Positions 1,109 through 22,892 of a stretch of 33,052 nucleotides of DNA are shown here, one piece after another. Origin of the DNA: a virus. Each line of letters starts with the position of its first letter. The first letter of the stretch is position 1. The translations under genes were made by a program, and so were the position numbers. The stretch is taken from positions 1 to 33,052 of the IMG/VR virus record IMGVR_UViG_3300045988_025843; one strand, given 5' to 3'. A model generated the notes under the pieces. That model searched no databases. It saw only the letters and a program-made list of their open reading frames with translations, and was not told the origin of the DNA.

Positions 1109-1120
1109 ATTTTATATAAT

Positions 1121-3152: not shown

Positions 3153-3154
3153 AT

Positions 3155-6264: not shown

Positions 6265-6271
6265 TTAGGAG

Positions 6272-6301
6272 ATGGAGGGCTGTTAACAGTTCTCCATTTT
6301 T
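6272..6301 (+). terminator. Rho-independent terminator ending the late/lysis operon
   Basis: An 11-bp stem pairs ATGGAGGGCTG (6272-6282) with CAGTTCTCCAT (6287-6297), including two G-U pairs. The loop is TTAA and a T-run follows to 6301. Confidence 0.8.
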
Positions 6302-6318
6302 CGTTTACATTCGTTAAC

Positions 6319-6538: not shown

Positions 6539-6627
6539 ATAAGACACTGATAAATAGCACTTTAGCTCACACACACCGTTTCTTTACACCTTTTCACTTT
6601 TGATTAAGATTTATTAGCACAAAAAGA

Positions 6628-6659
6628 GATACAACCTATTGTCATTTGCCGTATCTTTG
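6628..6659 (+). promoter_or_regulatory. Promoter of ncRNA locus A (ACAAC element plus -7 box TATCTTTG)
   Basis: TATCTTTG at 6652-6659 matches the Bacteroidota -7 consensus TAnnTTTG. GATACAAC starts exactly 24 nt upstream, the same spacing as in six other promoters in this genome. Confidence 0.7.
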
Positions 6660-6665
6660 TAATGT

Positions 6666-6872
6666 CAAAAGGAAACAAGGTTGTTCTTTACTGAAACTAA
6701 GAACATGATACCCTTAAAAGGAAAGTTTGAAAAGTGAATGGGATTCAAACACCGGGCTACCCAAAGACAAACAAAAAACTAAGAGGTTGCTTTTTACCAA
6801 AACTAAGAGCACGATACCCGAAAGGGAAAGTTTGAAAAGTGAAAGGGATTCAAACACCGAATAGTTTTTTTT
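6666..6872 (+). ncRNA. Tandem two-hairpin structured RNA, locus A (2 units of about 105 nt)
   Basis: Unit 1: GGT (6679-6681), stem 6682-6688/6699-6705, then ACC (6710-6712); hairpin 2 pairs GTTTGAA (6725-6731) with TTCAAAC (6744-6750). Unit 2: stem 6788-6794/6805-6811; hairpin 2 pairs 6830-6836 with 6849-6855 and is followed by a T8 run (6865-6872). There is no ORF. Stems are supported by compensatory changes between the four copies. The 5' end is inferred from the promoter. Confidence 0.65.
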
Positions 6873-6929
6873 AAAGAAAAGAGGTCACCAAGACATTAAA
6901 CTGGAAATAACTGTGAACAAGTAAGAACG

Positions 6930-6937
6930 TAGATTTG
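6930..6937 (+). promoter_or_regulatory. -7 box TAGATTTG upstream of the 6973 gene
   Basis: It matches TAnnTTTG and ends 36 nt before the ATG at 6973. The upstream CAAC element is absent. Confidence 0.45.
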
Positions 6938-6972
6938 TTATCACTGTATTAACGTATAAAACGAAGCAAAGT

Positions 6973-7197
6973 ATGAAAGCAATTGATTTAATTTTCAGAG
7001 AAACGATGACCGAGGGTCAATTCGAGATGAAGAGCCACGTATTAGTATTTATAGACGAGGCAGGCAACGAGTATAGCGATACTTTTTCAGAGGTACGCCA
7101 TAACGGAAGATTCGAAGCATACCAATACAACGGTATGGAATACCAGCACATGCAGGACCTTTTAGAAGCTATTTTCTTAAATAGTGTTAACAAGTGA
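6973..7197 (+). CDS. Hypothetical early protein
   Basis: 74-aa ORF, the first gene after ncRNA locus A. No motif was recognised. Confidence 0.6.
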   Translation: MKAIDLIFRETMTEGQFEMKSHVLVFIDEAGNEYSDTFSEVRHNGRFEAYQYNGMEYQHMQDLLEAIFLNSVNK

Positions 7198-7227
7198 ACC
7201 AACGTATTAGCAAAAGCGTTATATTTG
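7196..7227 (+). promoter_or_regulatory. Early-class promoter cassette (GAACCAAC-N16-TATATTTG)
   Basis: GAACCAAC lies at 7196-7203 and the -7 box TATATTTG at 7220-7227. The conserved leader CATCAACAATTTAAAAAG follows, then the ATG at 7254. Confidence 0.7.
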
Positions 7228-7253
7228 CATCAACAATTTAAAAAGATAAAGCT

Positions 7254-7511
7254 ATGGAAGAACAAAAGTTTATTATCGACGAAGTGAAAAAGCATTTGCA
7301 GGCGAGAGCGAGGAAGAACAAATGCCGAGTTATTGATGCAGCGCAGGAAATGCCGACGTTTGAGGGATTTATACTCCCTTACTACGCCTCTACAATGGAA
7401 GGAGCGAAATACCCGGTAAACGTAGAAGAAATGTATATCTACTGTGACGAGTGGGAAGAGTTCTATAACGAGACAGTAGCCAAGGTCGCACAAGCCATTC
7501 TGGAAGCCTAA
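7254..7511 (+). CDS. Hypothetical early protein
   Basis: 85-aa ORF behind its own promoter cassette. Confidence 0.65.
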   Translation: MEEQKFIIDEVKKHLQARARKNKCRVIDAAQEMPTFEGFILPYYASTMEGAKYPVNVEEMYIYCDEWEEFYNETVAKVAQAILEA

Positions 7512-7561
7512 CAAATCAAGGAAGCGTAAATTAGTTATTCACCATATAAAAAGAAAAGAAA

Positions 7562-8131
7562 ATGAAGATTACACCGTTAACAATCGATTTTGACGTTACA
7601 AACGCACAAGAAGTAGAGTTTGTAAATGACCTAATGAACCGTCTATTTGGAAGTGCACCGCTTAAGGCTACGGCAGCGCCTACAGAAAGCCCCGTAAACA
7701 GTACAAGCGTACCGACGTTTAGTGAACCGACACAGACCGCTGCGCCCGTTCAAGAATTTAAGAAGGAAGCCACAGCGGTAGCTATTGCAGAGGAAACAAT
7801 AGTAGACGCCATCGCGGAAGTGAAGAAGGAAATGAAAAAGCCCGAAAAGGTAGCAAAGCCAAAGACCGTAAAGGAAGCCCCACAAGCGACGATTGAACCC
7901 GAACCCGTACAAGCTCCCCTCGAAGAGGAGAAAGCCCCGGAGAAAGCCTCAAACGAGCCTCTAACGGCGAAGGACATGCAGGCGTTCATGATTGATATGA
8001 TGAAAACCGGGAAAATCACTCGTCCACAATTAACGGATATCATGCTTGAGTTCGGCGGCGCGTCCCTTATGCGTATCAAGCCCGAGAAGTACGAGCTATT
8101 GAAACAACGTATTGAAACCTATAACGATTAA
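7562..8131 (+). CDS. Hypothetical protein with a long Pro/Glu/Lys/Ala-rich central region
   Basis: 189 aa with structured-looking termini and a low-complexity centre (..KPEKVAKPKTVKEAPQATIEPEPVQAPLEEEKAPEK..). It lies directly upstream of the nuclease gene. Confidence 0.65.
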   Translation: MKITPLTIDFDVTNAQEVEFVNDLMNRLFGSAPLKATAAPTESPVNSTSVPTFSEPTQTAAPVQEFKKEATAVAIAEETIVDAIAEVKKEMKKPEKVAKPKTVKEAPQATIEPEPVQAPLEEEKAPEKASNEPLTAKDMQAFMIDMMKTGKITRPQLTDIMLEFGGASLMRIKPEKYELLKQRIETYND

Positions 8132-8136
8132 AAAGA

Positions 8137-9315
8137 ATGAAAGTACAAGTAGACCACACAAGTAGGGCACACGCCCTACTTTCCCCGAGCAGCTCGCACC
8201 GCTGGCTTAACTGCACACCTTCCGCGCGATTGGAGGAACCGTATGAGAGCACGAGTAGCGCGGCATCAGAAGAGGGAACGGTAGCGCATGAGTTGGCAGA
8301 GTATGCGATAGAAAAGTATTTATCCGGGGAATACCTACCGTTATTGGACGAATTGCCCGTACCCGACGAAATACGTAACAACAAATACTATAGTTCAGAA
8401 ATGGAACACTACATAACCGACTACGTTTGCTACGTGTGTGACATATACGAGTTGGAGGAAGGCGCTAAAATGAGTATAGAACGGAAGTTCGACCTAACAA
8501 CATACGTTCCCGAGTGTTTTGGTAGCTGCGACTGCGACATAGTAGGCGAAACGGTTCTAAATATCATAGACCTAAAATACGGAAAGGGCGTACAAGTGGA
8601 CGCTGATTGGAATAGCCAATTAATGATGTACGCTATCGGGGTGCTTAACTCCTTAGAACCATCGCACCGCGCAAAGATTGAAACGGTACGCATGCACATT
8701 GCACAAGTACGGTTAGGCAATTACTCGGTATTCGAGACGTCCGCACGGGACTTGACCCACTGGGCGATACACGTACTACGCCCCACCGCCGAAAAGGCAT
8801 GGGCAGGACAAGGGGAAACCAAAGTAGGCAGCCATTGTAAGTTCTGCAAGTTCAAAGCGCAATGCAGGGCACAGAAAGATGCTTTAGTTAGCGAGTTCGA
8901 GGCACACGGGGACGCCAAGGCGTTAACTCTTGACGAGATAGGCGATATACTAAGCAAGTCCGATATGTTCACCGACTGGCTGGCATCGGTCAAGACTTTC
9001 GCAATGCAAGCCGCCACAAGGGGCGAAAAGGTCAAGGGGTGGAAGCTCGTAGAGGGAAGGTCAGCACGTGTAATAAACGACACGGAAACAGCTATAGAAC
9101 GCCTAAAAGCTTTAGGTTTCTCAACCGAGGACATAACTAACAGCAAACTGAAAGGTATCGGAGACCTGGAACGGCTCGTAGGTAAGAAACCGCTCGCCGC
9201 TGCGCTTGACGGGCTGATAGTCAAGCCAAAAGGGATGCCAACATTAGCCCCGGAAAGCGATAAGCGCGAGGCGCTAAGCCCTACTATTGACGACTTCGAG
9301 AAATTAAATTCATAA
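8137..9315 (+). CDS. PD-(D/E)XK nuclease with a Cas4-like Cys cluster (DUF2800-type)
   Basis: It carries CDCDIVG...IIDLKYGKG (a D...D/E-x-K core) and C-terminal CKFCKFKAQC plus an N-terminal Cys, as in Cas4/RecB-family 4Fe-4S nucleases. At 392 aa and positioned before the DUF2815-like SSB, it fits a known phage replication module. Confidence 0.75.
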   Translation: MKVQVDHTSRAHALLSPSSSHRWLNCTPSARLEEPYESTSSAASEEGTVAHELAEYAIEKYLSGEYLPLLDELPVPDEIRNNKYYSSEMEHYITDYVCYVCDIYELEEGAKMSIERKFDLTTYVPECFGSCDCDIVGETVLNIIDLKYGKGVQVDADWNSQLMMYAIGVLNSLEPSHRAKIETVRMHIAQVRLGNYSVFETSARDLTHWAIHVLRPTAEKAWAGQGETKVGSHCKFCKFKAQCRAQKDALVSEFEAHGDAKALTLDEIGDILSKSDMFTDWLASVKTFAMQAATRGEKVKGWKLVEGRSARVINDTETAIERLKALGFSTEDITNSKLKGIGDLERLVGKKPLAAALDGLIVKPKGMPTLAPESDKREALSPTIDDFEKLNS

Positions 9316-9330
9316 AAGAAGTTAACGAAA

Positions 9331-9362
9331 GAACCAACCTATCAGATAAAGCGTTATATTTG
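9331..9362 (+). promoter_or_regulatory. Early-class promoter cassette (GAACCAAC-N16-TATATTTG)
   Basis: GAACCAAC lies at 9331-9338 and TATATTTG at 9355-9362, followed by the leader GTTATCAAATTAAAAAC. GTTAACGAAAGAACCAAC is identical to the copy at 21089-21106. Confidence 0.7.
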
Positions 9363-9388
9363 CGTTATCAAATTAAAAACAAAACGAT

Positions 9389-9697
9389 ATGAAAAGTAAC
9401 AACGGTATCCTAACAGAGAAAGAGATTCAAGAAAGAACAAAGTTTTGGAGTAAAAAGCAGTTCCGCACATGGAGCAAGAAAGAACTTGAAAGAACCTCTA
9501 AATACATGCAAAATCTTTTGGTAGCCCTAAAGGAATTCAGTATGGACGAGATTAAGGCTATTAGAAAGTTAGACCGGTATGGCTTTGATTCATACTACAA
9601 AAATGACCCGAAGTATATCGTACGGATGGCAGACCAAAGAGACTTAGATTATGCTATTTTGATAGCGCCAAAAACTTTTAAAGTTAAACAAGGTTAA
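9389..9697 (+). CDS. Hypothetical protein
   Basis: 102-aa ORF behind a promoter cassette. Confidence 0.65.
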   Translation: MKSNNGILTEKEIQERTKFWSKKQFRTWSKKELERTSKYMQNLLVALKEFSMDEIKAIRKLDRYGFDSYYKNDPKYIVRMADQRDLDYAILIAPKTFKVKQG

Positions 9698-9702
9698 CAG
9701 AG

Positions 9703-9730
9703 TAAACAACCTATTTATTTGTTATCTTTG
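9703..9730 (+). promoter_or_regulatory. Promoter cassette variant (AAACAAC, 20-nt offset, -7 box TATCTTTG)
   Basis: TATCTTTG lies at 9723-9730, followed by the leader CACCATCAAATTAAAAAC. The upstream TAAACAAC starts at 9703, an offset of 20 nt rather than 24. Confidence 0.6.
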
Positions 9731-9793
9731 CACCATCAAATTAAAAACGGAACGCCCGAACCGATTAGAGGGCAAAAACAAAAATTGTAGAAT

Positions 9794-10327
9794 ATGAAAG
9801 CAATGATTAAGAACGTGAGATTGAGTTATGTTAGATTGTTTGAAGCGCAACAAGTCAACGGACAAGGAGAAGCAAGTTACAGTGTATGCTTATTGATTCC
9901 GAAGGATAGCCCGGAAGTCCCAAAGATTAAAGCAGCTATCGAAGCCGAGTTTTCAACTCTTAAGGCACGTTATCCGAAGTTGAACGGCAAAGACCCGAAG
10001 GTATGGGCTAACCCATTAAGAGATGGGGATGCTGAGAAAGACGGCGCAGAGTATCAAGGTTGCTACTTTATCAACGCAAAGCGTAAAGAGAAGCAAGGCG
10101 CGCCTATCGTAATCGACGGTAAGAAACAGTACATCACAGACCCGAATGAGGTTTATAGCGGTTCTTGGGGCAACGTAGCCGTATCTTTCTATCCTTATGA
10201 GTTTACCGGGAAATACGGTATCGGTGTAGGTTTGAACGGTGTGCAGAAGACAAGAGACGATGAAAGACTGGATGGTGGTATAAGCCTTGACGATTTTGAT
10301 TTCGAAGACGACGACCTTTTCAACTAA
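9794..10327 (+). CDS. ssDNA-binding protein (DUF2815 / T7 gp2.5-like)
   Basis: The N-terminus MKAMIKNVRLSYVRLFEA is characteristic of DUF2815 phage SSBs. The acidic C-terminal tail (DDFDFEDDDLFN) is typical of gp2.5-type SSBs. Confidence 0.75.
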   Translation: MKAMIKNVRLSYVRLFEAQQVNGQGEASYSVCLLIPKDSPEVPKIKAAIEAEFSTLKARYPKLNGKDPKVWANPLRDGDAEKDGAEYQGCYFINAKRKEKQGAPIVIDGKKQYITDPNEVYSGSWGNVAVSFYPYEFTGKYGIGVGLNGVQKTRDDERLDGGISLDDFDFEDDDLFN

Positions 10328-10353
10328 CAATTCAATTAGACAGAATAATAACC

Positions 10354-10372
10354 GGGCGGTGTAATGCCGCCC
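10354..10372 (+). other. GC-rich hairpin after the SSB gene (no downstream T-run)
   Basis: GGGCGG (10354-10359) pairs with CCGCCC (10367-10372) around a 7-nt loop. It is followed by an A-run rather than a T-run, so it is not a canonical + strand terminator. Confidence 0.35.
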
Positions 10373-10389
10373 AAAAATAAAAAGCAAAA

Positions 10390-11490
10390 ATGGGGAAATA
10401 CGATTCGTACGTAAACGAAGAAGGTGTTAGGATTTCAAAGGTAACGGGAAAACCGTTGAAAAAGTATAATAAGGTCAACAAGGCATACTGGGCAGCTCGT
10501 GAAGGCAAAGCATTAGTAGGGGTACAGCAACCTATAGTAGAGGTAGACCCGTTGATAGAGGAGCTTAAAAGCTATTACAACGAAGAAGAATTAAGGGGTA
10601 TTATCGGTTTGAAGAAAGACGCGCCGCCCGTCGAACTGGTACACATCACACCGAAGAAAAAGACATCACTCGACGAGGGAAACACTGGGTTTCTTATTGC
10701 ATCAGACTGGCATGCCGACGAAGTAGTAAAGGCATCTACGGTATTGGGCAAAAACGAATATAACAAGGGTATCGCAGAAAAGCGTATCACTAATTTCTTT
10801 GCGAATGCCGCCTATATGATAAAGAAAAAGCCAGTAGATAACTTGGTTATCGGTTTGATTGGCGATATGATAGGCGGCTACATTCACCCCGAACTCGAAC
10901 AGACAAATAGCATGCCCCCGATGCGCGGTGTTAACTTCGTTAAGAGCCTAATTATTTCCGGGCTTAAGTATCTGCACGACCAACTGCCGGAACTTGAAAA
11001 GATAACCGTCATCGGTATTTGCGGAAACCATTCAAGAACTACAAAAAAGATGCAGTTTAGCAACGGTTTCGAGATGAATTATGAATATTTCATGTACAAG
11101 GACATCGAACACAACCTAACACTTATGGGGCTGACAAAATTCAGTTTCATTATCCCCGAAAGTGAATTTGCTTATATCGACGTGTACGGAAAGAAAGTGT
11201 TATTCGCACACGGGCATCAATTCCGCACGGCTGGCGGTATCGGAGGCATTTACCCGTCAATGATGCGCTGGTACGCAAAGATGAACCAAACAATACAAAT
11301 TGATAAAGCCTTTATCGGGCATTACCACCAAATGATATATACTAAAGAGGTTTGCGTAAACGGTTCTTTGAAGGGTTTCGACGCGTTCGCAATGGGGCAC
11401 GGACTGGCATATGAGGAACCGCAACAAACATACGTTATTCTGAACGAGAAGCGAGGCTTTATTTTCTACTCGCCTATTTTTGCAGATTAA
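10390..11490 (+). CDS. Calcineurin-like metallophosphoesterase (Mre11/SbcD-like)
   Basis: The ordered motifs SDWHAD, GDMIGG, GNHSR, HGHQF and GHYH match the phosphoesterase signature D-x-H / GD / GNH / H / GH. Confidence 0.8.
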   Translation: MGKYDSYVNEEGVRISKVTGKPLKKYNKVNKAYWAAREGKALVGVQQPIVEVDPLIEELKSYYNEEELRGIIGLKKDAPPVELVHITPKKKTSLDEGNTGFLIASDWHADEVVKASTVLGKNEYNKGIAEKRITNFFANAAYMIKKKPVDNLVIGLIGDMIGGYIHPELEQTNSMPPMRGVNFVKSLIISGLKYLHDQLPELEKITVIGICGNHSRTTKKMQFSNGFEMNYEYFMYKDIEHNLTLMGLTKFSFIIPESEFAYIDVYGKKVLFAHGHQFRTAGGIGGIYPSMMRWYAKMNQTIQIDKAFIGHYHQMIYTKEVCVNGSLKGFDAFAMGHGLAYEEPQQTYVILNEKRGFIFYSPIFAD

Positions 11491-11494
11491 GTTA

Positions 11495-11546
11495 AAAAGG
11501 CTACTAATTGTTAAATAAATGCAATCAGTAGCCTTTCTTCTTGTTT
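11495..11546 (+). terminator. Rho-independent terminator after the phosphoesterase gene
   Basis: AGGCTACT (11498-11505) pairs with AGTAGCCT (11527-11534), flanked by an A-run upstream and the T-rich tract TTCTTCTTGTTT downstream. Confidence 0.7.
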
Positions 11547-11550
11547 ATTA

Positions 11551-11633
11551 AAAACATTGTCGTACCTTTGCCGTTATAATGGTATTAACAGTTAAAACAT
11601 TGTCGTACCTTTGCCGTTATAATGGTATTAACA
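11551..11633 (+). repeat. Exact 40-nt direct repeat x2 (43-nt period), each copy carrying TACCTTTG; tandem promoter candidates for the polymerase operon
   Basis: 11551-11590 is identical to 11594-11633 (AAAACATTGTCGTACCTTTGCCGTTATAATGGTATTAACA). The partial string TTAAAACA at 11635-11642 resembles the TTAAAACA that spans the junction into copy 2. TACCTTTG lies at 11563-11570 and 11606-11613, and each copy also contains TATAAT. Confidence 0.9.
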
Positions 11634-11649
11634 ATTAAAACAATGAGTT

Positions 11650-13668
11650 ATGAGACATTTATTCATCGACTTTGAAACGTATTCCGAAACGGACATTAAA
11701 AGCGCTGGTAATTATAAATACTGTGAGGACATGAATTTTGAAATTCTCCTTTGCGGATACATGTGGGACACAGATACGGAGGTTTCAATTATCGACTTAA
11801 CGAAGCCCGGAGGACTGGACGAGTTTAACGAGCTGTTCCTATATGTACAGAACAACGAGGACGTTGTGATAGTCGCGCACAACGCTACATTTGAGCGTAT
11901 CTGTTTGCGTGAATATGGGTTTGACATAAGCCCTATGCGCTTTTTCTGTACGGCTAACATGTCATTGTATTGTGGTATGCCGGCATCATTGGAAGCGGTA
12001 TCCAATATTCTGAACCTGGACGATAAGAAGAAAGGCACGGGCAAAAACCTTATCCGTTACTTTTCTATCCCTTGCAAACCCACCAAAACAAACGGAGGGC
12101 GCACACGTAATATGCCGGATCACGCCCCCGAGGACTGGAAAGAGTTCATAGATTACTTGCGATATGATGTGCTTTCTGAAAAGGAGATATTCGGTAAGTT
12201 GTCCCGGTTTGAATTCCCGGAAGAAGAGCAGCGAATTTATGCAGCTGACCAACGAATAAACGATTATGGCATATTGGCAGACCTTGATTTAGCACACGCC
12301 GCGCAAGATATGGACGAAGAATATAAGGCACGTCTTACTGAAAGAGCCGAAAAGGAATACGGGTTAAGCTCCTTAAAGTCCATGCCTCAGCTTAAGGGCT
12401 TCATTAAAGAGCGTACGGGCGTGGTTATCGATTCCCTCAATAAGAATAGCATCGAAGAGGTGGTAAAGACCGTAGCGAGCCTTAAAAACGTTACTGACGA
12501 GGATAAGCAAGCAGTGTTAGACGTTATCGACCTACGTAGGGAGATAGGCAAAACGTCGAACGCCAAGTACACCGCCATACTCGCAAGCGCCGGGAGGGGC
12601 AACCGTATCAGAGGTTTGTTCCGTTATTACGGGGCGAACCGTACCGGGCGATGGGCTGGGCGATTGGTTCAACTACAGAACCTACCGCAAAACCACATTG
12701 AAGACCTGGACGGGGCACGAGAACTGGCAAAGATGCACGATCTGGATATGATGGAAGTTATATACGACAAACCGACGCATATACTATCGCAGCTTATACG
12801 TACCGCGTTTATCGCCCCCGAAGGGTACACGTTCGCTGTAGCTGACTTCTCGGCGATTGAGGCACGTGTAATTGCCTGGGTTGCTAATGAGCAATGGCGT
12901 TTAGACTTATTTAACGACCCGAAGGCTGATATATATTGCGCTTCTGCGTCTAAAATGTTCGGTGTCCCGGTACACAAGGGCGACGACTTAAGGCAGCGCG
13001 GTAAGGTAGCGGAGCTTGCACTCGGATACGGCGGCGGCGTTAACGCCCTTACCACAATGGATATTAAAAAAGCGTTAGCAGATGAAGAAAAACCTCAAAT
13101 ATTGTCAAAATGGAGAGAAGCTAATAAAAAAATAGTATTTTTGTGGCGTTCGTTAGAAGACAGCGCAAAAAGATGTATCGGAACAAGGCGTGAACAAGTC
13201 TATAAAATAGACGATGTTTCAAGTATTATATTTCGATATGAGAGCGGCGCAATGACTATTGAACTACCAAGCGGTAGAAAGCTGTTCTACCCGTCTGCAA
13301 GAATGGGAAAACGTACTATCGAGGGCGTTAACGGCTCGTTTGAGGTTGAGGATATATCCTACATGGGTCAAGACCAAACCTCCGGGAAATGGGTTAAGCT
13401 AAACACATACGGAGGCAAGTTAACCGAGAACGTTGTGCAGGCGATAGCCCGTGACTTGCTGGCGAATGCGATTTTTAAGGTATTTGATTTAGGCTTTAAT
13501 ATCGTGTTGCATGTTCACGATGAAATAGCCGCCGAAATACCGAAGGATGGAAACGAAGAAAAGACGCTGCAAATAATGAGTGATGCCATGTGCAGCGCCC
13601 CGAGCTGGGCAAAGGGCATACCATTAAGAGCAGCAGGTTATATTACTGAATATTACAAAAAAGATTAA
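11650..13668 (+). CDS. Family A DNA polymerase with 3'-5' exonuclease domain
   Basis: The exonuclease motifs are FIDFETYS, HNATFE and YLRYDV. The polymerase motifs are A (FAVADFSAIEARV), B (RQRGKVAELALGYGGG) and C (VLHVHDEI). Confidence 0.9.
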   Translation: MRHLFIDFETYSETDIKSAGNYKYCEDMNFEILLCGYMWDTDTEVSIIDLTKPGGLDEFNELFLYVQNNEDVVIVAHNATFERICLREYGFDISPMRFFCTANMSLYCGMPASLEAVSNILNLDDKKKGTGKNLIRYFSIPCKPTKTNGGRTRNMPDHAPEDWKEFIDYLRYDVLSEKEIFGKLSRFEFPEEEQRIYAADQRINDYGILADLDLAHAAQDMDEEYKARLTERAEKEYGLSSLKSMPQLKGFIKERTGVVIDSLNKNSIEEVVKTVASLKNVTDEDKQAVLDVIDLRREIGKTSNAKYTAILASAGRGNRIRGLFRYYGANRTGRWAGRLVQLQNLPQNHIEDLDGARELAKMHDLDMMEVIYDKPTHILSQLIRTAFIAPEGYTFAVADFSAIEARVIAWVANEQWRLDLFNDPKADIYCASASKMFGVPVHKGDDLRQRGKVAELALGYGGGVNALTTMDIKKALADEEKPQILSKWREANKKIVFLWRSLEDSAKRCIGTRREQVYKIDDVSSIIFRYESGAMTIELPSGRKLFYPSARMGKRTIEGVNGSFEVEDISYMGQDQTSGKWVKLNTYGGKLTENVVQAIARDLLANAIFKVFDLGFNIVLHVHDEIAAEIPKDGNEEKTLQIMSDAMCSAPSWAKGIPLRAAGYITEYYKKD

Positions 13669-13672
13669 ATCT

Positions 13673-16111
13673 ATGGATTTACGAAAAATGACTTTTAAAA
13701 TTGCTACCGCGAGCAGCGCAAAGTCTACTTCATGGAAAAACCGCTCCTTCTCATGGGACGAGTTAACCGAGAAGCTGGCAAGGGCAAAGGTTACGGATGA
13801 GACGTACCGGGAGTTCATAAGCGCGAGCAAAGCCGAGCAGGGTAACATTAAAGACGTAGGCGCATTCATGGGCGGCGAGTTATTCGGTAGCCGTAGAAAC
13901 AAAAACAATGTCGGGGAACGCTCTATTTTGGCTCTCGATATTGACTACGGCGAAAAGAACTTTCCCGAGGCATTCTACTCGGTTATTAATTGCGCATGTA
14001 TCATTCACGGGACGCACAAGCATAACCCGAAGGCAAATACATTTCGATACCGTGTTATCATTCCGTTGTCTGAACCAGTGGACGGGGAACAATACGAAGC
14101 CATCGCCAGAAAGGTTGCGGAATTAACGGGTATTGACTTGTACGACAGAACGACGTTTCAACCCGAGCGCTGTATGTTTTTCCCATCGGTTTCCCGGGAT
14201 GTGGACTATGAGTTTATAGATTACTCGGCGTTCAACGAAAACCCTTTGGACGTGCAAAAGTATTTGGGCATGTACGACGATTGGAGCGATACAACCGAAT
14301 GGGCATACCATAAGGACGAGAAGGGCGAAGCCCGGACGCTTGCTAAAGAACAACAAGACCCCACATTAAAAGAGGGTAACGTAGGTGACTTTTGCAGAGC
14401 CTACACGATTAGCGAGGTTATCGCGGAATACCTATCGGACGTTTACGAACCTACCGAGCAGGAGGATAGATGGACTTATACGGGCGGTTCCACGTCGGGC
14501 GGCATGATTACCTTCAATGATATGTTTGCTTATTCGTTCCATAACAATGATCCGATACAAGGCAACCATGTGTTTAATGCCTACGACCTTGTACGTGTGC
14601 ACAAGTTCGGCAAACTGGATAAGGGCGCGGATAGAAAGAACTCCACCGAGGCTATGAACGAACTTGTAAACAAGGACCCAAAGGTGGCAGCGGCGCGTGC
14701 CCGTATGCTGGCGGTTAAGGCTGGCGAAATAATGGACGATTTCGACGACGTTATAGAAGTAGAGGAGGCAGCGGACACCGATGTGGCAATGACATACGAG
14801 GACGCTATGGCGAAACTCGAAACGGGTAAGCGCGGCGCTTACCTCCCGTCTGCAAAGAATTTAGGGTTGATAATGAAGTACGACCCGAACCTAAAGGGGC
14901 TTATTGCACGAGACCTATTTAAAGAACGCCGGGTTGTTACCCGTGTACCCATATGGCGCGCGAAGGATAGTTCTTTGGACTTCCAGGATGTGGACTACTC
15001 GGGCGTACGTAAACACATTGAAGACGTTTACGGTATATCCAACAGTGCGAAGATTGACGATGCCATAGCACTATCTGCGGAAATGAATTCTTTCCACCCA
15101 GTGCAGGAATACCTAACCAAATTAAAATGGGACGGTATCGAACGCGTGGATAAGGCGCTTATCCATATTATGGGAGCGGAAGATAACATATACACCCGTG
15201 AAGCATTCCGTATCATGATGGTTGGCGCGGTTAAGCGTATCTTCCAAAAGGGATGCAAGTTTGACAGCATGTTAGTGTTGCAGTCCGAGCAGGGCGCCGG
15301 AAAAAGCACATTTATCCGAAAGCTGGGTAAGCAATGGTTCTCCGATAGCCTTTCAAGCATGGACGGTAAGGGCGCGTTTGAACAATTGCAAGGTAATTGG
15401 ATATTGGAGGTCGCGGAGTTGTCAGCAATGAGACGTTCAGAGGTTGAGGGGGTGAAAAACTTCATTTCCAAAACAGAGGACAGCTACAGACCAGCGTACG
15501 GACGTGTTACGAAGAACTTTCCCCGGCAGTGTATTTTCATAGGTACAACGAATAGGGACGAATTCCTAAAGGACGATACGGGCGGCAGACGCTTTTTGCC
15601 CGTGAAGGTTAAGGCGAACGCCAATACGCATCTTATCTTTGAGAAGGGATTCGACGAATATGTAGACCAGCTATGGGCGGAGGCAGTCCAAATGTATTTC
15701 CGCAAAGTAAGTACGCTACTATCTCGCGAAGCCGAGGAAATCGCCGAGAGAGGACGCGAAGAGCATTTCGAGGCAGACCCCCGTACCGCATCAGTAGAGG
15801 CGTATTTGGACATGCTTGTGCCCTCGGACTGGAGACGAATGTATGTGAATGAAAGGCGCATGTACTTTAGGGGGTACGACGCATCAAAGATAGACCCGGA
15901 AGATTTTACACTGGAAAAGATGGACTTCGTATCTATTATGCAAATAGCTACAGATGTGTTCGAGATGGAAGTAGGGCGCGTAACGACCAAGGAAAGCCGC
16001 GAGATAGCGGCTATCATGTCTAAGGTACAAGGGTGGCAACGCGCAGCGAATGGAAAAACCGTCGCAGGCATCGGACGCGTACGAGGGTTTGAACGTATTG
16101 TTAACGAGTGA
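13673..16111 (+). CDS. Primase-polymerase / VirE-D5-like helicase fusion
   Basis: 812 aa. The N-terminal part has AEP-like ILALDIDYG and IIHGTHKH. The C-terminal part has the P-loop SEQGAGKST and Walker B ILEVAELS, as in VirE/D5-type phage primase-helicases. Confidence 0.8.
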   Translation: MDLRKMTFKIATASSAKSTSWKNRSFSWDELTEKLARAKVTDETYREFISASKAEQGNIKDVGAFMGGELFGSRRNKNNVGERSILALDIDYGEKNFPEAFYSVINCACIIHGTHKHNPKANTFRYRVIIPLSEPVDGEQYEAIARKVAELTGIDLYDRTTFQPERCMFFPSVSRDVDYEFIDYSAFNENPLDVQKYLGMYDDWSDTTEWAYHKDEKGEARTLAKEQQDPTLKEGNVGDFCRAYTISEVIAEYLSDVYEPTEQEDRWTYTGGSTSGGMITFNDMFAYSFHNNDPIQGNHVFNAYDLVRVHKFGKLDKGADRKNSTEAMNELVNKDPKVAAARARMLAVKAGEIMDDFDDVIEVEEAADTDVAMTYEDAMAKLETGKRGAYLPSAKNLGLIMKYDPNLKGLIARDLFKERRVVTRVPIWRAKDSSLDFQDVDYSGVRKHIEDVYGISNSAKIDDAIALSAEMNSFHPVQEYLTKLKWDGIERVDKALIHIMGAEDNIYTREAFRIMMVGAVKRIFQKGCKFDSMLVLQSEQGAGKSTFIRKLGKQWFSDSLSSMDGKGAFEQLQGNWILEVAELSAMRRSEVEGVKNFISKTEDSYRPAYGRVTKNFPRQCIFIGTTNRDEFLKDDTGGRRFLPVKVKANANTHLIFEKGFDEYVDQLWAEAVQMYFRKVSTLLSREAEEIAERGREEHFEADPRTASVEAYLDMLVPSDWRRMYVNERRMYFRGYDASKIDPEDFTLEKMDFVSIMQIATDVFEMEVGRVTTKESREIAAIMSKVQGWQRAANGKTVAGIGRVRGFERIVNE

Positions 16112-16202
16112 TAACAGAGAGGGGCGTAAAAGCCTCCAAATGTTAACTAACTGTTAACAGAATAACTAAATGAAATTTATCTCTTAAATGGTGTTAACGG
16201 AA

Positions 16203-16234
16203 TATACAACCTATCAGTATTTGCCGTATATTTG
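16203..16234 (+). promoter_or_regulatory. Promoter of ncRNA locus B (ACAAC element plus -7 box TATATTTG)
   Basis: TATACAAC starts at 16203 and TATATTTG lies at 16227-16234, a 24-nt offset. It is collinear with 6628-6659. Confidence 0.7.
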
Positions 16235-16240
16235 TAATGC

Positions 16241-16450
16241 CAAAAGGAAACAAGGTTATTCTTTACCGAAACTAAGAATACGAGACCCGCCCCAAAAGGA
16301 AAGATTAAAAAGTGAATGGAATTTAATCACCGGGTTTTCTTAAGACAAACAGAAAAAACTAAGAGGTTGCTTTTTACCAAAACTAAGAGCACGATACCCG
16401 AAAGGGAAAGTTTGAGAAGTGAAAGGGATTCAAACACCAAATAGTTTTTT
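16241..16450 (+). ncRNA. Tandem two-hairpin structured RNA, locus B (2 units)
   Basis: Unit 1: stem TATTCTT (16257-16263) pairs with AAGAATA (16274-16280); hairpin 2 pairs GATTAAA (16303-16309) with TTTAATC (16322-16328). Unit 2 (16361-16440) is nearly identical to locus A unit 2; its hairpin 2 pairs 16410-16416 with 16429-16435, followed by a T6 run (16445-16450). There is no ORF. Confidence 0.65.
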
Positions 16451-16529
16451 AAATAAAAAGGCAATAACGGTGAACCATTTCAAAGCTTCCGTTGTTCTTA
16501 TAGTATAACAATTTAAAAAACAAAAGATT

Positions 16530-16940
16530 ATGAAAAAGTTAGTAGTATTAGCAGTGTTAATTCTTACAAGTGTATCAATGTTTAGCCAAATTACGTCTCA
16601 GGGTAAACCCGATGTACTGAAATCATTCCGTATGGGCGTTTGCAAATTGGTTAATACTAATGGGTCAATAACCATTGAGGCGGTAACGCGCGAGACCGAA
16701 AGGTATATTATGAAAGTCCATTTAGGTACACCCGAGGAAGCGGCGGTAACGCTTGCAAGCCTTGCAGAATACAAACCCCGAAAGGGCGAGACGGTGAACC
16801 TAAACAACCCGAGCAACAACGAGGCGTATTTCCAAAAGCTTAATGGTACCTGGGTTATCACGGAGAAGTTAACGGAGGTTTTCAGCATAGCCGTAAGCCG
16901 CGGAGAGCTTAAAAAGATGGTTGAGGCGCTGAACAATTAA
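16530..16940 (+). CDS. Secreted protein (signal peptide), function unknown
   Basis: The N-terminus MKKLVVLAVLILTSVSMFSQ is a classic Sec signal without a lipobox Cys. 136 aa. Confidence 0.7.
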   Translation: MKKLVVLAVLILTSVSMFSQITSQGKPDVLKSFRMGVCKLVNTNGSITIEAVTRETERYIMKVHLGTPEEAAVTLASLAEYKPRKGETVNLNNPSNNEAYFQKLNGTWVITEKLTEVFSIAVSRGELKKMVEALNN

Positions 16941-16988
16941 AGAAGTGTTTTTGTTATTACAGCATATGCAATTTTAAAAAGAAAAATT

Positions 16989-17192
16989 ATGAAAAGTGGA
17001 AATTTTATCAGACTGGAATTCGTAGTTAAAGGTGAATTACAAGTGGAGTTTATCAACGTTGAACATGTATCGCGCATTATGCACGTGGAAGGCAAACCGT
17101 TTATTGGTATGCTGGGACAGACCTACACGCGCCAACTTACAGAAACGAGCATGAAGGACCTAATGGAGTACATTAACGTAGAAAGCAATTAA
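16989..17192 (+). CDS. Hypothetical protein
   Basis: 67-aa ORF preceded by an AATTTTAAAAAG-type leader. Confidence 0.55.
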   Translation: MKSGNFIRLEFVVKGELQVEFINVEHVSRIMHVEGKPFIGMLGQTYTRQLTETSMKDLMEYINVESN

Positions 17193-19566: not shown

Positions 19567-20948
19567 AAAGAAAGCAATTACATGAATACCAAGTAAAGGG
19601 AGTGCAGCACATCATAGACAACGAGTTTTGCGCGTTGTTCCTTGATATGGGCCTCGGGAAAACAGTAACTACCCTAACCGCCATCAAAGACCTTTTGGAC
19701 AATTGCATAATATCTAATTGCCTGGTAATCGCCCCGAAGAAGGTAACACAGGTTACATGGAGCGACGAGATTAAAGCCTGGGAGCACCTTAAGGACTTGA
19801 CGATATCAGTCATAGACGGCACGGTTAAACAGCGCCGGGAAGCCTATGGGAAGCAGGCGGACATATACGCAATTAGCCGTGATAACATTGCATGGTTGGT
19901 AATGGAGTACGGGGGTATAAAGCTACCCTATGATATGGTTGTTATCGATGAGCTTAGCAGTTTTAAGAATTACGCGTCAAAGCGTTTTAAAGCCCTTAGA
20001 AAGGTGCGGAAGTTTATCCCCCGAGTAGTAGGCTTGACGGGTACACCGTCGCCAAACGGGCTTATAGACCTATTCGCGCAAATGTATTTGATAGACCAAG
20101 GGGAGAGGCTCGGTAAATCAATCACAGCATACAGGGATAGGTTTTTCAGACCCGATAAGAGGAACGGCGATATAGTGTACAGTTATGCACTGAAAAGTCC
20201 GCAGGAGGAAACAGAGAAGCTAATAAGCGACCTAATAAGTGATATTACCATTTCAATGACCGCCGAGGACTATTTGAAGATGCCCGACCACATTAACATA
20301 TACGACCGCGTGGAGTTGCCCCCTAAAGTGCTGGCACAATATAAGGAGTTTGAGAAGGAGCAAGTATTGGAACTTATCAACTCGGACGAGCCTATAAGTG
20401 CGGCAAGTGCAGCAGCCCTGTCGAACAAGCTACAGCAATTCGCTAACGGCGCGATATATGATGCCGACGGAAAGGTAATAGAACTGCACGACGAGAAGTT
20501 GGAAAAACTCGAGGAGCTTGTAGAGGCGGCTAACGGCTCGCCCGTATTGGTTGCCTACTCTTACAAGCACGACCTTGAACGTATAATGCGGAAGCTGAAG
20601 GCATACAAGCCCGTCAAACTGGAAAAGCCCGAGCAGATAGCAGACTGGAACGCCGGGAAGATTAAAGTGATGGTAACCCACCCGGCGAGCGCAGGACACG
20701 GGCTTAACCTACAAAAAGGTGGGCATACGCTTATATGGTTCGGTAATACATGGAGCTTGGAACTGTACATGCAGTTCAACGCCCGGTTGTATCGTCAAGG
20801 GCAAGCGTACCCCGTAACCATACACCACGTCTTAACCACTGGAACGGTAGACGAGAAGATAATAAAAGCCCTGGAAGGCAAGAAACAGACGCAGGACGGG
20901 CTTATGCAGAGTATCAAGGAACTTATGGAATTCTACAGTAAGAAATGA
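19560..20948 (+). CDS. SNF2-family helicase
   Basis: The motifs are I (LDMGLGKT), II (VVIDELSSF), III (GLTGTPSPNG), and C-terminal HPASAGHGLNLQ and YRQGQ. Confidence 0.88.
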   Translation: MLERKQLHEYQVKGVQHIIDNEFCALFLDMGLGKTVTTLTAIKDLLDNCIISNCLVIAPKKVTQVTWSDEIKAWEHLKDLTISVIDGTVKQRREAYGKQADIYAISRDNIAWLVMEYGGIKLPYDMVVIDELSSFKNYASKRFKALRKVRKFIPRVVGLTGTPSPNGLIDLFAQMYLIDQGERLGKSITAYRDRFFRPDKRNGDIVYSYALKSPQEETEKLISDLISDITISMTAEDYLKMPDHINIYDRVELPPKVLAQYKEFEKEQVLELINSDEPISAASAAALSNKLQQFANGAIYDADGKVIELHDEKLEKLEELVEAANGSPVLVAYSYKHDLERIMRKLKAYKPVKLEKPEQIADWNAGKIKVMVTHPASAGHGLNLQKGGHTLIWFGNTWSLELYMQFNARLYRQGQAYPVTIHHVLTTGTVDEKIIKALEGKKQTQDGLMQSIKELMEFYSKK

Positions 20949-21467: not shown

Positions 21468-21902
21468 ATGACAAATAAAGAATTCGCGTTTAACTACGCA
21501 GGCAAAGAGTTCATGTACTACGGAAATAGGGTTATCTTAGTGGGTTTCAATAGTAAACGCCCCGGGACGGTAATCGTGTCCCCCTTAGAGGAAAAAGCCA
21601 TAAAACCTTTTTGTTGGGAAGGGGAATACCTTGATAGGTGGGATGTGATAATGTATAAGACCGATATAGGGGTTTACCAATATGTAAACCTAAATGAGAT
21701 CGTCCCCATAACCAATGAGAAGCCCCAAACCGTGGTTAAGCCAATGGCACCGGGCGGGGGTATTGCTTATTACGAGGGGCAGCAGGGCATGAACTATTCT
21801 GTGATTAACGGTTCTGTGTCCGCGGTGTATAAAAGGCAAGGGAGCGCCTTAAAACTTGTCTCCCGGGGTGAGGGTATTAACGATGTAACAGAAAAGGTAT
21901 GA
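21468..21902 (+). CDS. Hypothetical protein
   Basis: 144-aa ORF with an AAATTTAAAAAC-type leader. Confidence 0.65.
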   Translation: MTNKEFAFNYAGKEFMYYGNRVILVGFNSKRPGTVIVSPLEEKAIKPFCWEGEYLDRWDVIMYKTDIGVYQYVNLNEIVPITNEKPQTVVKPMAPGGGIAYYEGQQGMNYSVINGSVSAVYKRQGSALKLVSRGEGINDVTEKV

Positions 21903-22018
21903 TGGAAAAAACAACGATGGTTTTAATGTTCGTAATGCTAGTAGGCATTTACTTTTTAGGGTGTGCGGCGGTAGTGATATACATAGCAAAAAATATAGTA
22001 AGATGGCTGAAACATTAA
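21902..22018 (+). CDS. Small single-pass membrane peptide (38 aa; alternative ATG at 21899)
   Basis: Its ATG overlaps the upstream TGA. The sequence is MEKTTMVLMFVMLVGIYFLGCAAVVIYIAKNIVRWLKH, with one clear TM helix and a basic C-terminus. Confidence 0.45.
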   Translation: MEKTTMVLMFVMLVGIYFLGCAAVVIYIAKNIVRWLKH

Positions 22019-22687: not shown

Positions 22688-22892
22688 CACAGCTGCACAG
22701 TAAAAAATCGCTACTGTGCAGGTCTCTGTGCAGTCTAACTCCTTATATTATAATATATTACATGTATATACACAGATACACAGTAAAAAGGGGGGTAAAA
22801 CATTATTTTGGAATATAGTATATATTTGAGGGGTATAAAATATACTATATTTCATATTAAAGTTTAGAAAAAAAAGTGCGTGTCTGTGCAGG
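22688..22892. repeat. Element X copy 2: CTGTGCAG/CTGCACAG octamer cluster, AT-rich core and hairpin
   Basis: CACAG lies at 22688-22692 and CTGCACAG at 22693-22700. CTGTGCAG lies at 22714-22721 and 22726-22733. CACAG recurs at 22771-22775 and 22779-22783. A perfect 11-bp hairpin pairs ATATAGTATAT (22813-22823) with ATATACTATAT (22840-22850). CTGTGCAG closes the element at 22884-22891. Confidence 0.9.

What the first reader, a model, noticed from the sequence alone, without database searches (positions are those of the whole stretch)
16203..16450. Second copy of the tandem-hairpin RNA locus: direct repeats bracketing the whole replication module, with uneven divergence between units
The same promoter, two-unit RNA and terminator recur 9,575 bp downstream of locus A. 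The two loci therefore flank exactly the replication module (6973-16111).

Divergence differs sharply between the two units:
- Unit 2 is almost identical between loci. I count 2 mismatches over about 97 nt (6774-6870 versus 16354-16450).
- Unit 1 is only about 80% identical, and its stem differences are compensatory.

This pattern suggests either gene conversion or a recent duplication of unit 2, or different constraints on the two units. Direct repeats about 100 nt long and 9.6 kb apart are also substrates for recombinational excision or exchange of the replication cassette, which would be a plausible mosaicism mechanism.

The downstream genes differ. A 74-aa protein follows locus A, and a signal-peptide protein follows locus B. 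The RNA is therefore not a leader specific to one gene.
Basis: seen in the sequence. Interest (0 to 1): 0.7.

Follow-up and report, generated by a model that had tools for sequence, protein, structure and literature searches.

The report
Repeated structured-RNA cassette in gut phage
The second copy is real: this Bacteroides phage carries two promoter-driven cassettes, each encoding two copies of a previously uncatalogued folded RNA, sitting in two conserved "cargo slots" that related phages fill with none to two RNA copies or with small genes; what the RNA does is unknown.

Summary
Locus B (16204-16460) repeats locus A (6629-6880). Both have the same promoter, two ~105-nt units and a U-run. 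Unit 1 is 80.0% identical between loci and unit 2 is 97.9% (2 mismatches in 97 nt).

Each unit is a genuine structured RNA with helices P0-P1 closing a junction of P2, P3 and P4. Twelve of 20 core pairs show compensatory changes across 57 distinct sequences. Loops L2 and L4 are almost invariant. There is no Rfam match, no tRNA and no copy in bacterial genomes.

The family is confined to ~33-37-kb Bacteroides/Phocaeicola siphophages. It occurs only at two positions: after the lysis module, and after the VapE-like helicase. Both positions carry the same promoter in all relatives, followed by variable cargo: 0-2 RNA units, another non-coding element, or small ORFs. One close relative has no unit at all.

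The uneven divergence reflects three conserved unit subtypes shuffled between slots, not differential decay of a duplication. I found no sign that the replication module is excised.

Function is inferred only. An accessory, dosage-variable, trans-acting protein-binding RNA is most likely. A cis-acting attenuator or antitermination leader is the main rival.

The parts
16142..16198 (+). Three GTTAAC boxes upstream of promoter P_B (16142-16147, 16153-16158, 16193-16198). The last one is at about -45.
   Evidence: Read. GTTAAC at the same distance precedes four other TAnnTTTG promoters in the window and P_B of the Phocaeicola phages. A role as an operator or activator site is inferred.
16206..16234 (+). 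Promoter P_B. It has the -33-region motif ACAACCTAT and the -7 box TATATTTG (16227-16234). The transcript probably starts near 16241-16244.
   Evidence: The pattern occurs exactly twice in the window and never in shuffles. It is conserved at this position in relatives even when an ORF follows. The -7 box matches Bacteroides TAnnTTTG. The start site is inferred.
16244..16341 (+). RNA unit B1, subtype T1b. P0 is 16244-16251 paired with 16334-16341. The P1-to-P1' core is 16254-16331.
   Evidence: The covariance-model score is 101.1 bits. The nearest relatives are T1b units of other phages at 95-96%.
16353..16450 (+). RNA unit B2, subtype T2, which is the terminal unit. P0 is AAAAAACTA 16353-16361 paired with TAGTTTTTT 16442-16450. 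The core is 16365-16438. The U-run is 16445-16450.
   Evidence: The covariance-model score is 109.7 bits. It is 97.9% identical to A2. The terminator scan does not call it.
6631..6659 (+). Promoter P_A, the twin of P_B. Its -7 box TATCTTTG is at 6652-6659, and there is no GTTAAC box upstream.
6669..6766 (+). RNA unit A1, subtype T1a. The core is 6679-6753. P0 is weak: GGAAAC 6671-6676 paired with GCTACC 6756-6761.
   Evidence: The covariance-model score is 110.2 bits. The nearest relatives are slot-A units of other phages, up to 97.8%.
6773..6872 (+). RNA unit A2, subtype T2. P0 is 6773-6781 paired with 6862-6870. The core is 6785-6858. The U-run is 6865-6872.
   Evidence: The covariance-model score is 112 bits.
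6930..6937 (+). A separate TAnnTTTG box (TAGATTTG) 35 nt before the 74-aa gene. It marks the downstream boundary of cargo slot A.
   Evidence: The same sequence follows the slot-A cargo in BU2-1 and BU241P1.
6973..16111 (+). The genes between the two cassettes: 74-aa and 85-aa ORFs, a DUF2800/PD-(D/E)XK nuclease, an Enc34-type SSB, a 366-aa protein, PolA, and a VapE-like primase/helicase.
16530..16940 (+). The first gene downstream of cassette B (136 aa, no family match). No TAnnTTTG box lies in an intergenic gap between 16235 and 21122, so this operon probably reads through the RNA array.
   Evidence: The dependence on P_B is inferred.

Best explanation
**What it is (shown).** The feature at 16204-16460 is the slot-B copy of a cassette encoding two tandem, autonomously folding RNA domains of about 95-105 nt. 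These belong to an RNA family that is not in Rfam.

Each domain has this anatomy:
- A variable basal stem P0.
- A 3-bp stem P1.
- A junction carrying two 7-bp hairpins, P2 and P4, with almost invariant loops: L2 is U[ACCRAAAC]U and L4 is AAGUGAAWGGRA.
- A short P3.

**Genome organisation (shown).** This phage group has two conserved promoter-headed cargo slots. Slot A follows the lysis module. Slot B follows the VapE-like helicase. In different phages the slots hold 0-2 RNA domains, a different non-coding element, or small ORFs. The window has both slots filled with a two-domain array: T1a+T2 in slot A and T1b+T2 in slot B. Unit number and unit type change through homologous recombination between units and between slots.

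**How it works (inferred).**
1. Transcription starts at P_B.
2. Each domain folds as it is made.
3. The long P0 of the terminal T2 domain, running into a U-tract, stops or pauses part of the polymerases.
4. This releases a discrete array RNA of about 210 nt, while read-through serves the downstream operon.
5. The released RNA acts in trans as an accessory, dosage-dependent RNA that binds a host or phage protein through L2 and L4. This would be a host-takeover or counter-defence decoy, playing the same role as the small early ORFs that occupy the slots in other phages.

The confidence of 0.45 applies to this functional reading. The structural and evolutionary description is much more secure.
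For: **Structure**
- In 57 distinct units, 95.2% of cells are paired, against 33-48% when partners are slid. Twelve of 20 pairs change on both sides, and 0 of 500 shuffles reach the observed values.
- An independent MAFFT plus RNAalifold run recovers P0-P4, with 18 of 24 pairs compensated.
- Mutual information ranks the helix pairs highest. It also ranks a U.U to C.C switch that closes L2, at 69:12.
- The L2-L4 contact C26:G78 is compatible in all 81 sequences: C-G 68, U-G 10, U-A 3.

**No known family.** Rfam gives nothing at gathering scores or at E<=10. There are no tRNAs.

**Phage-specific.** The scan of 185,579 species genomes gave one true hit, on a 34-kb phage-sized contig. Every true hit among the viral and metagenome matches that I mapped lies in the same phage group and in slot A or slot B.

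**Cargo-slot behaviour**
- The same promoter drives a 74-aa ORF in slot B of BU2-1.
- EMB1 has a promoter copy at slot A with an annotated 90-aa ORF after it.
- BU241P1 has a 120-aa ORF and a 57-aa ORF in its two slots, and no RNA unit at all with filters off.
- The RNA is therefore dispensable, as an accessory gene would be.

**Dosage and turnover.** Across 66 distinct complete arrays there are singles, doubles, hybrid units and T1b units in slot A.

**Array end.** The last unit ends in a U-run in three divergent sequence contexts.
Against: - No experiment or expression data were available.
- The U-run is not a canonical terminator. The commonest slot-A form, a single T1a unit, has no U-run at all.
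- In the Phocaeicola phages, and probably at slot B of the window, the array is physically the 5' leader of the next operon, with no intervening promoter. This fits a cis role equally well.
- No binding partner, no host homologue to mimic, and no complementary target in the phage genome was found.
- The invariant loops could serve only tertiary folding.
Confidence: 0.45

Rival explanations
1. The array is a cis-acting leader. It would work in one of two ways:
- As a conditional attenuator, like a tandem riboswitch or a protein-responsive leader. Ligand- or protein-stabilised folding of the terminal domain would close P0 next to the U-tract and terminate transcription before the downstream operon.
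- As a processive antitermination element in the style of HK022 put, modifying RNA polymerase that has just left the promoter.
For: - The array always lies immediately downstream of a promoter, in the sense orientation.
- In the Phocaeicola phages it runs straight into the A-rich leader and ATG of the next ORF.
- In L021 the U-run is only about 30 nt from the next start codon.
- No intergenic TAnnTTTG box lies between P_B and 21122 in the window.
- The compact shape resembles known aptamers: equal 7-bp arms, a possible L2-L4 kissing contact and a conserved junction.
- There are two sites per genome just downstream of promoters, as with putL and putR. That comparison rests on general knowledge of HK022, not on a test here.
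Against: - There is no constant expression platform. The 3' contexts vary: no U-run, U4-U9, a following promoter, or a direct ATG.
- The downstream genes differ between slots and between phages.
- The element is absent from BU241P1, whose operons and intergenic sequences are otherwise about 90% identical. The operons therefore do not need it.
- Slot A has its own downstream promoter box.
- In other phages the same slots hold ORFs, which look like independent cargo.
Confidence: 0.3
2. The main significance of the two cassettes would be as ~100-250-nt direct repeats that allow recombinational excision or exchange of the 9.6-kb replication module.
For: - The two copies are 87% identical over about 250 nt, with a 97-nt stretch at 98%.
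- Recombination between slots has clearly happened, because T1b units occur in slot A of L031 and L032 and T2 units are shared by both slots.
Against: - I saw no contig in which slot A is joined directly to slot-B downstream sequence, and none with the module missing. In every case I could measure, the two slots lie about 9.7-10.4 kb apart.
- Excision would remove the polymerase and the helicase, which would be lethal for a lytic phage.
- Many relatives have RNA in only one slot. The shorter promoter repeat is present in all of them regardless.
Confidence: 0.08
3. The element acts at the DNA level. It would be a replication origin or primosome loading site, with hairpins forming in single-stranded DNA next to the helicase gene. 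Transcription from P_A or P_B would serve only to activate it.
For: - It lies next to the primase/helicase and replication genes.
- It sits downstream of strong promoters, as in the transcription-activated origins of T7 and T4. That comparison rests on general knowledge, not on a test here.
Against: - The pairing is strand-specific. G-U pairs are tolerated on the + strand in P2 and P4, and these would be C-A mismatches on the other strand.
- P0 pairs with the very 5' end of the predicted transcript.
- A viable close relative lacks the element entirely.
- A branched junction with invariant loops is not what origins look like.
Confidence: 0.05
4. The region encodes small proteins. A 51-aa ORF at 16188-16343 overlaps B1, and GenBank annotates ORFs over the units in phages BV283P2 and BV57P1.
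For: One search lists the 51-aa ORF. Searches show the annotated CDS over the units.
Against: - No ORF is conserved across units or across phages.
- Substitutions are compensatory in stems rather than synonymous.
- Indels of 1-5 nt occur inside the units.
Confidence: 0.02

Closest known systems
HK022 putL/putR antitermination RNAs
   Same: These are phage RNA elements transcribed immediately downstream of two early promoters, giving two sites per genome. They are built from hairpins, need no dedicated phage protein, and are followed by terminators and operons.
   Different: put consists of two stem-loops of about 70 nt that act on RNA polymerase. Here each unit has a five-helix junction, comes in 0-4 copies, is dispensable in a close relative, and shares no sequence or model similarity with put. 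Antitermination was not tested.
P1/P7 c4 and P4 CI immunity RNAs (Rfam C4, RF01695)
   Same: These are RNAs of about 75-90 nt that lie in the leader of a phage operon. A closing stem carries hairpins whose loops hold the function, and the RNA is released from a longer transcript.
   Different: There is no match to any Rfam model. The loops have no complementary targets in the genome beyond chance. These phages were isolated as plaque formers, and no immunity module was noted.
Type III antitoxin arrays and phage pseudo-ToxI
   Same: These are promoter-driven tandem repeats of a structured RNA ending in a terminator. In phages they are accessory, and copy number changes by recombination, which alters dosage.
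   Different: ToxI-type units are about 34-45 nt and are partnered with an adjacent ToxN/AbiQ-type toxin. Here units are about 105 nt, Pfam found no toxin-like family in the flanking genes I scanned, and no host copy was found.
Tandem riboswitch aptamers (glycine) and purine-riboswitch-type 'tuning fork' folds
   Same: Tandem homologous domains lie in a 5' leader. Two equal-length arms may be held together by a loop-loop contact. The junction is conserved, and a closing helix lies next to a U-tract.
   Different: There is no consistent expression platform, no consistent downstream gene class, no known ligand and no Rfam similarity.
Phage morons and early accessory-gene slots
   Same: These are self-contained units of promoter, cargo and terminator, inserted at fixed points between conserved modules. 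They vary between close relatives and are dispensable.
   Different: The cargo here is a structured RNA, in one or two kinds, rather than a protein gene.

Membership tests
Any Rfam 15 family (4227 models) | The covariance-model score reaches the family's gathering threshold. | tested here: not met
   There were no matches at gathering scores over the whole window. With E<=10 on locus A, on locus B and on a Phocaeicola homologue, only scattered eukaryotic snoRNA or lncRNA noise appeared, and it was inconsistent between loci.
tRNA / tmRNA | ARAGORN detects a cloverleaf. | tested here: not met
   There were 0 genes in the window.
C4-type antisense immunity RNA | The hairpin loops are complementary to target sites in the same phage operon. 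| tested here: not met
   Reverse complements of L4 and L2, allowing up to 2 mismatches, gave only the units themselves plus a chance-level number of other hits.
C4-type antisense immunity RNA | The RNA lies in the transcribed leader of a phage operon. | tested here: met
   The units start about 10 nt after the predicted transcript start and precede the operon.
HK022 put-type antitermination RNA | The element is promoter-proximal in the early transcripts, with two sites per genome. | tested here: met
   P_A and P_B are each followed directly by the array.
HK022 put-type antitermination RNA | It has the two-stem-loop put architecture and causes cis read-through of terminators. | not testable with these tools
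   The architecture found here is different: P0-P4 around a junction. Antitermination needs transcription assays.
Type III toxin-antitoxin / pseudo-ToxI RNA array | Tandem units of about 34-45 nt lie next to a ToxN/AbiQ-type toxin gene, or mimic a host array. | tested here: not met
   The unit period is 105-110 nt. The flanking ORFs have no such Pfam domain. No bacterial genome carries the motif.
Type III toxin-antitoxin / pseudo-ToxI RNA array | Copy number varies through recombination between repeats. | tested here: met
   There are 0-4 units per genome, and hybrid unit-1/unit-2 singles exist.
Riboswitch (tandem aptamer) | The aptamer fold is conserved and supported by covariation. | tested here: met
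Riboswitch (tandem aptamer) | There is a consistent expression platform and a consistent class of regulated genes. | tested here: inconclusive
   A U-run follows the terminal unit in most arrays, but not in the 11 single-T1a arrays. The downstream genes differ and have no known function.
Riboswitch (tandem aptamer) | It binds a specific ligand. | not testable with these tools
   This needs in-line probing or ITC.
Canonical intrinsic terminator | A GC-rich hairpin is followed within 0-2 nt by a T-run. | tested here: not met
   The scan calls no site at 6860-6875 or 16440-16455. The stem next to the U-run is the A/U-rich, long-range P0.
Bacteroides primary-sigma promoter | There is a -7 box TAnnTTTG. 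| tested here: met
   TATCTTTG is at 6652 and TATATTTG is at 16227.
Bacteroides primary-sigma promoter | There is a -33 TTTG 17-23 nt upstream of the -7 box. | tested here: not met
   There is no match at either locus. Instead, a shared (A)CAAC(C)TAT motif, usually with GTTAAC upstream, is found at six phage promoters.
RNA anti-CRISPR (CRISPR-repeat mimic) | The sequence or structure resembles a host CRISPR repeat. | not testable with these tools
   No host genome was available. The strict two-loop motif is absent from bacterial genomes, which argues against an identical host repeat.
FopS/GibS Bacteroides sRNAs | A single-stranded 5' seed is followed by a terminator hairpin, and the family has an Rfam entry. 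| tested here: not met
   PMC11697453 describes the FopS structure, says it was deposited in Rfam, and reports a phage copy. The fold here is different and there is no Rfam match.

The most novel reading that the evidence does not exclude
The unit may be a new class of compact sensor or decoy RNA used by gut Bacteroidaceae phages. It could be a riboswitch-like domain that gates early operons in response to a host or phage metabolite or protein. Alternatively it could be an RNA decoy that neutralises a host defence or host RNA-binding protein, with potency tuned by unit number. Cultured isolates with 0, 1, 2 and 4 units already exist (for example BU241P1, BU2-1, EMB1 and the 2+2 type). The question is therefore directly testable.
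Probability: 0.3. Interest if true: 0.8.

Novelty: new variant of a known kind. Interest (0 to 1): 0.55.

Why it matters
Non-coding RNAs of phages that infect dominant gut Bacteroidaceae are essentially uncharted. This one is a well-supported structured RNA family with four notable properties:
- It has near-invariant loops.
- It occupies the same early cargo slots as small accessory proteins.
- Its dosage varies from 0 to 4 units among otherwise ~90%-identical, cultivable phages.
- It has no counterpart in Rfam or in bacterial genomes.

That natural allelic series makes it an unusually tractable entry point for asking whether phages use RNAs, not only proteins, as accessory host-takeover or counter-defence factors, or whether this is a new leader-regulation device. 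It also corrects database annotation, because several GenBank records place hypothetical ORFs over these units.

Tried and rejected
1. **Rfam.** I ran gathering and permissive thresholds on both loci and on a Phocaeicola homologue. Nothing consistent appeared.
2. **tRNA/tmRNA.** None were found.
3. **Antisense targets.** Reverse complements of both conserved loops gave only chance-level hits in the phage genome.
4. **Host homologue or mimic.**
   - The two-loop pattern scanned over 185,579 species genomes gave 18 hits.
   - Seventeen were chance: the covariance model found nothing in them.
   - One lay on a 34-kb phage-sized contig.
5. **More distant family members.** A looser P4/L4 pattern was run over IMG/VR and the metagenome collection. 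Every true hit I mapped lay in the same phage group and the same two slots.
   - Parabacteroides phage PM21P1 has no room for the element.
   - B. salyersiae phage BS162P3 carries only the unrelated element X.
6. **FopS/GibS.** These are Bacteroides sRNAs with a reported phage copy. The architecture is different, so I rejected this.
7. **Function of alternative slot cargo.** Pfam and PHROGs gave only a sub-threshold SprT-like/astacin-like HExxH hit for one ORF. The rest had no informative match.
8. **Hammerhead or other ribozyme cores, a T-box bulge, a sarcin-ricin-like L4.** I compared these by eye only. None fits, and none is claimed.
9. **Literature.** I found no description of this RNA. 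A catalogue of more than 10,000 candidate viral structured RNAs (PMC10690425) could contain it, but its supplements were not available to check.
10. **Failed script.** A regex-based unit census under-counted. I replaced it with a census based on covariance-model coordinates.

Full report
**What the window is.** The window is a complete phage genome of about 33 kb with all long ORFs on the + strand. Its 99-nt terminal direct repeat is most simply an assembler overlap. Across 6000-17000 it is 87-91% identical to cultured Bacteroides uniformis and B. xylanisolvens siphophages such as C2_18_80S2P, BU2-1, EMB1 and BX788P2. It is more distantly related to Phocaeicola phages.

**Checking the observation.** The repeat finder recovers both halves of the duplication, at spacings of 9575 and 9580 nt. 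Global alignment gives these identities between the two loci:

| Segment | Identity |
|---|---|
| Promoter and transcript start | 87.8% |
| Unit 1 (6669-6773 vs 16244-16353) | 80.0% |
| Unit 2 (6774-6870 vs 16354-16450) | 97.9% (2 mismatches in 97) |
| Flanks on either side | ~50% |

- The 29-nt promoter pattern occurs exactly twice in the window and never in shuffles.
- The unit-1 differences in P2 and P4 are compensatory.

Two qualifications apply:
- The 'terminator' is not canonical, and the scan does not call it.
- The cassettes bracket the core replication genes: DUF2800 nuclease, Enc34-type SSB, PolA and VapE-like helicase. A SNF2 helicase and a Dam methylase lie beyond locus B.

**The unit is a real structured RNA.** I built a covariance model from the four window units. 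It found 63 units in the window, GenBank phages and IMG/VR contigs, and 51 more in metagenome contigs.
- On 57 distinct sequences, 95.2% of cells are paired, against 33-48% when partners are slid by 1-3 columns.
- Twelve of 20 pairs change on both sides.
- No shuffle out of 500 reaches the observed pairing or covariation.
- That alignment is fitted to the model. I therefore repeated the analysis with MAFFT plus RNAalifold on 15 diverse units with longer flanks.
- The repeat run recovers the same P1, P2, P3 and P4, plus a 7-bp basal stem P0 whose sequence differs completely between subtypes. Eighteen of 24 pairs are compensated.
- Mutual information ranks the helix pairs highest. It also ranks a perfect U.U to C.C switch that closes L2.
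- L2 (ACCRAAAC), L4 (AAGUGAAWGGRA) and the junction segments GA.ACC and AAA.GGAAAG are invariant or nearly so.
- One loop-loop pair, C26:G78, is compatible in all 81 sequences (C-G 68, U-G 10, U-A 3), and it lies next to an invariant C25:G79.
- This suggests P2 and P4, both 7 bp long, lie side by side. That last point is suggestive only.

**It is not a known family.**
- Rfam gives nothing at gathering thresholds and nothing consistent at E<=10.
- ARAGORN finds no tRNA.
- The Bacteroides FopS/GibS sRNAs have a reported phage copy, but they consist of a single-stranded seed plus a terminator and are in Rfam (PMC11697453). They are not this RNA.
- My literature searches found no description of it.

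**Distribution.**
- A strict two-loop pattern over one genome for each of 185,579 species gave 18 hits, about the number expected by chance. Only one satisfies the model, and it lies on a 34-kb phage-sized contig binned into a Bacteroidetes MAG.
- Viral and metagenome scans, including a looser pattern, returned only members of the same phage group.
- The RNA therefore appears specific to this group of gut Bacteroides/Phocaeicola phages. No host copy was detected.

**The two loci are conserved cargo slots.** I mapped each array by its upstream flank. Every array lies either after the last lysis-module gene (slot A) or directly after the VapE-like helicase (slot B).

The promoter ACAACCTATnnnnATTTGCCGTATnTTTG is present at both positions in relatives, whatever follows it. 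Examples:
- **BU2-1:** slot A holds one unit, and slot B drives a 74-aa ORF.
- **EMB1:** slot A carries the promoter followed by an annotated 90-aa ORF. Slot B holds a different ~150-nt non-coding element plus one T2 unit, followed by a second promoter copy.
- **BU241P1:** about 90% identical to the window. It has no unit at all with filters off, and ORFs of 120 and 57 aa occupy its two slots.
- **All eight Phocaeicola-type phages I fetched:** one or two units sit in slot B, running straight into the leader of the next ORF.

The junction between promoter and cargo lies just after the predicted transcript start, GTCAAAAGGAAAC. P_A and P_B belong to a family of at least six promoters in the window. 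These combine a -7 TAnnTTTG box with a (A)CAAC(C)TAT motif and, usually, an upstream GTTAAC box.

**Explaining the uneven divergence.** The units fall into conserved subtypes:
- **T1a** is the usual first unit of slot A.
- **T1b** has the P4 sequence GAUUAAA/UUUAAUC and a longer P3 loop.
- **T2** is the terminal unit, with a GAAA-capped P3 and an A-run/U-run P0.
- The Phocaeicola phages carry their own unit variants, and a further variant (T1c) occurs in three divergent slot-A arrays.

The nearest neighbours of the window's units show this:
- A1 is up to 97.8% identical to slot-A units of other phages.
- B1 is 95-96% identical to T1b units of other phages, some of which sit in slot A. It is only 81% identical to A1.
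- T2 units are 96-99% identical across all phages and both slots, although the genomes themselves differ by about 10%.

The pattern therefore reflects modular assembly from subtypes (A = T1a+T2, B = T1b+T2) plus strong constraint on T2. It does not reflect a recent duplication within this genome.

Recombination is nonetheless evident in three forms:
- At least eight distinct single units combine a unit-1 5' flank with a T2 body, as unequal crossover within an array would produce.
- T1b units occur in slot A.
- Occupancies range from 0 to 4 units.

The 2+2 layout recurs in an independent contig that is about 86% identical to the window in the flanks upstream of both cassettes (L009 + L019). This rules out an assembly chimera. 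I found no genome in which the module between the slots is deleted or inverted.

**Mechanism.** Everything about function is inference. The points favouring a trans-acting, accessory RNA product are:
- The element is dispensable.
- It occupies slots that hold small early ORFs in other phages.
- Its copy number varies.
- In three divergent sequence contexts, the last unit of an array ends in a U-run directly after a long P0.
- Slot A has its own downstream promoter box.
- The loops are invariant, as expected for a binding surface.

The points favouring a cis role are:
- The array is physically the 5' leader of the next operon in the Phocaeicola phages, and probably in slot B of the window.
- The fold is aptamer-like.
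- The closing helix of the terminal domain lies next to the U-tract, which would allow folding-dependent attenuation.

The main argument against an essential cis role is that the array is absent from BU241P1 and its 3' contexts are heterogeneous. I put the trans-acting accessory RNA at about 0.45 and the cis-acting leader at about 0.3. The remaining probability goes to the recombination-substrate, DNA-level and coding readings.

**Verdict.**
- The finding is real.
- The structural and evolutionary description is solid.
- The RNA appears to be an undescribed family of unknown function in cultivable gut phages.
- This is of moderate to good interest, mainly because natural isolates with 0, 1, 2 and 4 units make the function testable.

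Noticed in passing
L003 (EMB1) 20088-20237, minus strand; L120 (BS162P3) ~1040-1200, minus strand; also L008, L064, L065, L068, L072, L085, L087, L090, L101, L103: A second, unrelated non-coding element of about 150 nt ('X', starting GAAAGGAACTAAAGACCCCATCAGC...) occupies slot B between the promoter and a T2 unit. In BS162P3 it stands alone. Copies are 98-100% identical among B. uniformis-type phages. It contains no ORF, and there is too little variation to test for structure.
   Followed up: partly
window 7220, 9355, 9723, 16227, 21123 (and 6652 without GTTAAC): There is a family of phage promoters with a GTTAAC box at about -45, an (A)CCAAC(C)TAT motif in the -33 region, and a -7 TAnnTTTG box. 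The canonical Bacteroides -33 TTTG is absent.
   Followed up: partly
window 6325-6530 and 22693-22889: A second repeated intergenic block is 78-93% identical between its two copies and is rich in CTGTGCAG/TGCACAG motifs. One copy lies just upstream of slot A. The other lies before the terminase module. These may be binding sites for a regulator.
   Followed up: no
window 11551-11593 / 11594-11636: A near-perfect 43-nt tandem duplication duplicates a TACCTTTG promoter box directly upstream of the PolA gene.
   Followed up: no
window 1-99 and 32954-33052: There is an exact 99-nt terminal direct repeat. It is most simply an assembler k-mer overlap of a circular or circularly permuted genome, not a biological terminal repeat.
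   Followed up: no
L061 (BU241P1) 21608-21970, minus strand: In this RNA-less phage, the slot-A cargo is a 120-aa ORF with an HExxH motif. It has sub-threshold SprT-like and astacin-like Pfam hits, so it may be a small metalloprotease.
   Followed up: partly
L037 (BV283P2) 3013-3381; L040 (BV57P1) 3004-3264: GenBank annotates hypothetical CDS that overlap the RNA units. These are probably spurious gene calls.
   Followed up: partly
unit columns 23 and 32 of alignment A7 (window 6689/6698, 16264/16273): The two nucleotides closing loop L2 switch together from U.U to C.C, at 69:12 with no exceptions. This is consistent with an isosteric non-canonical pair.
   Followed up: yes
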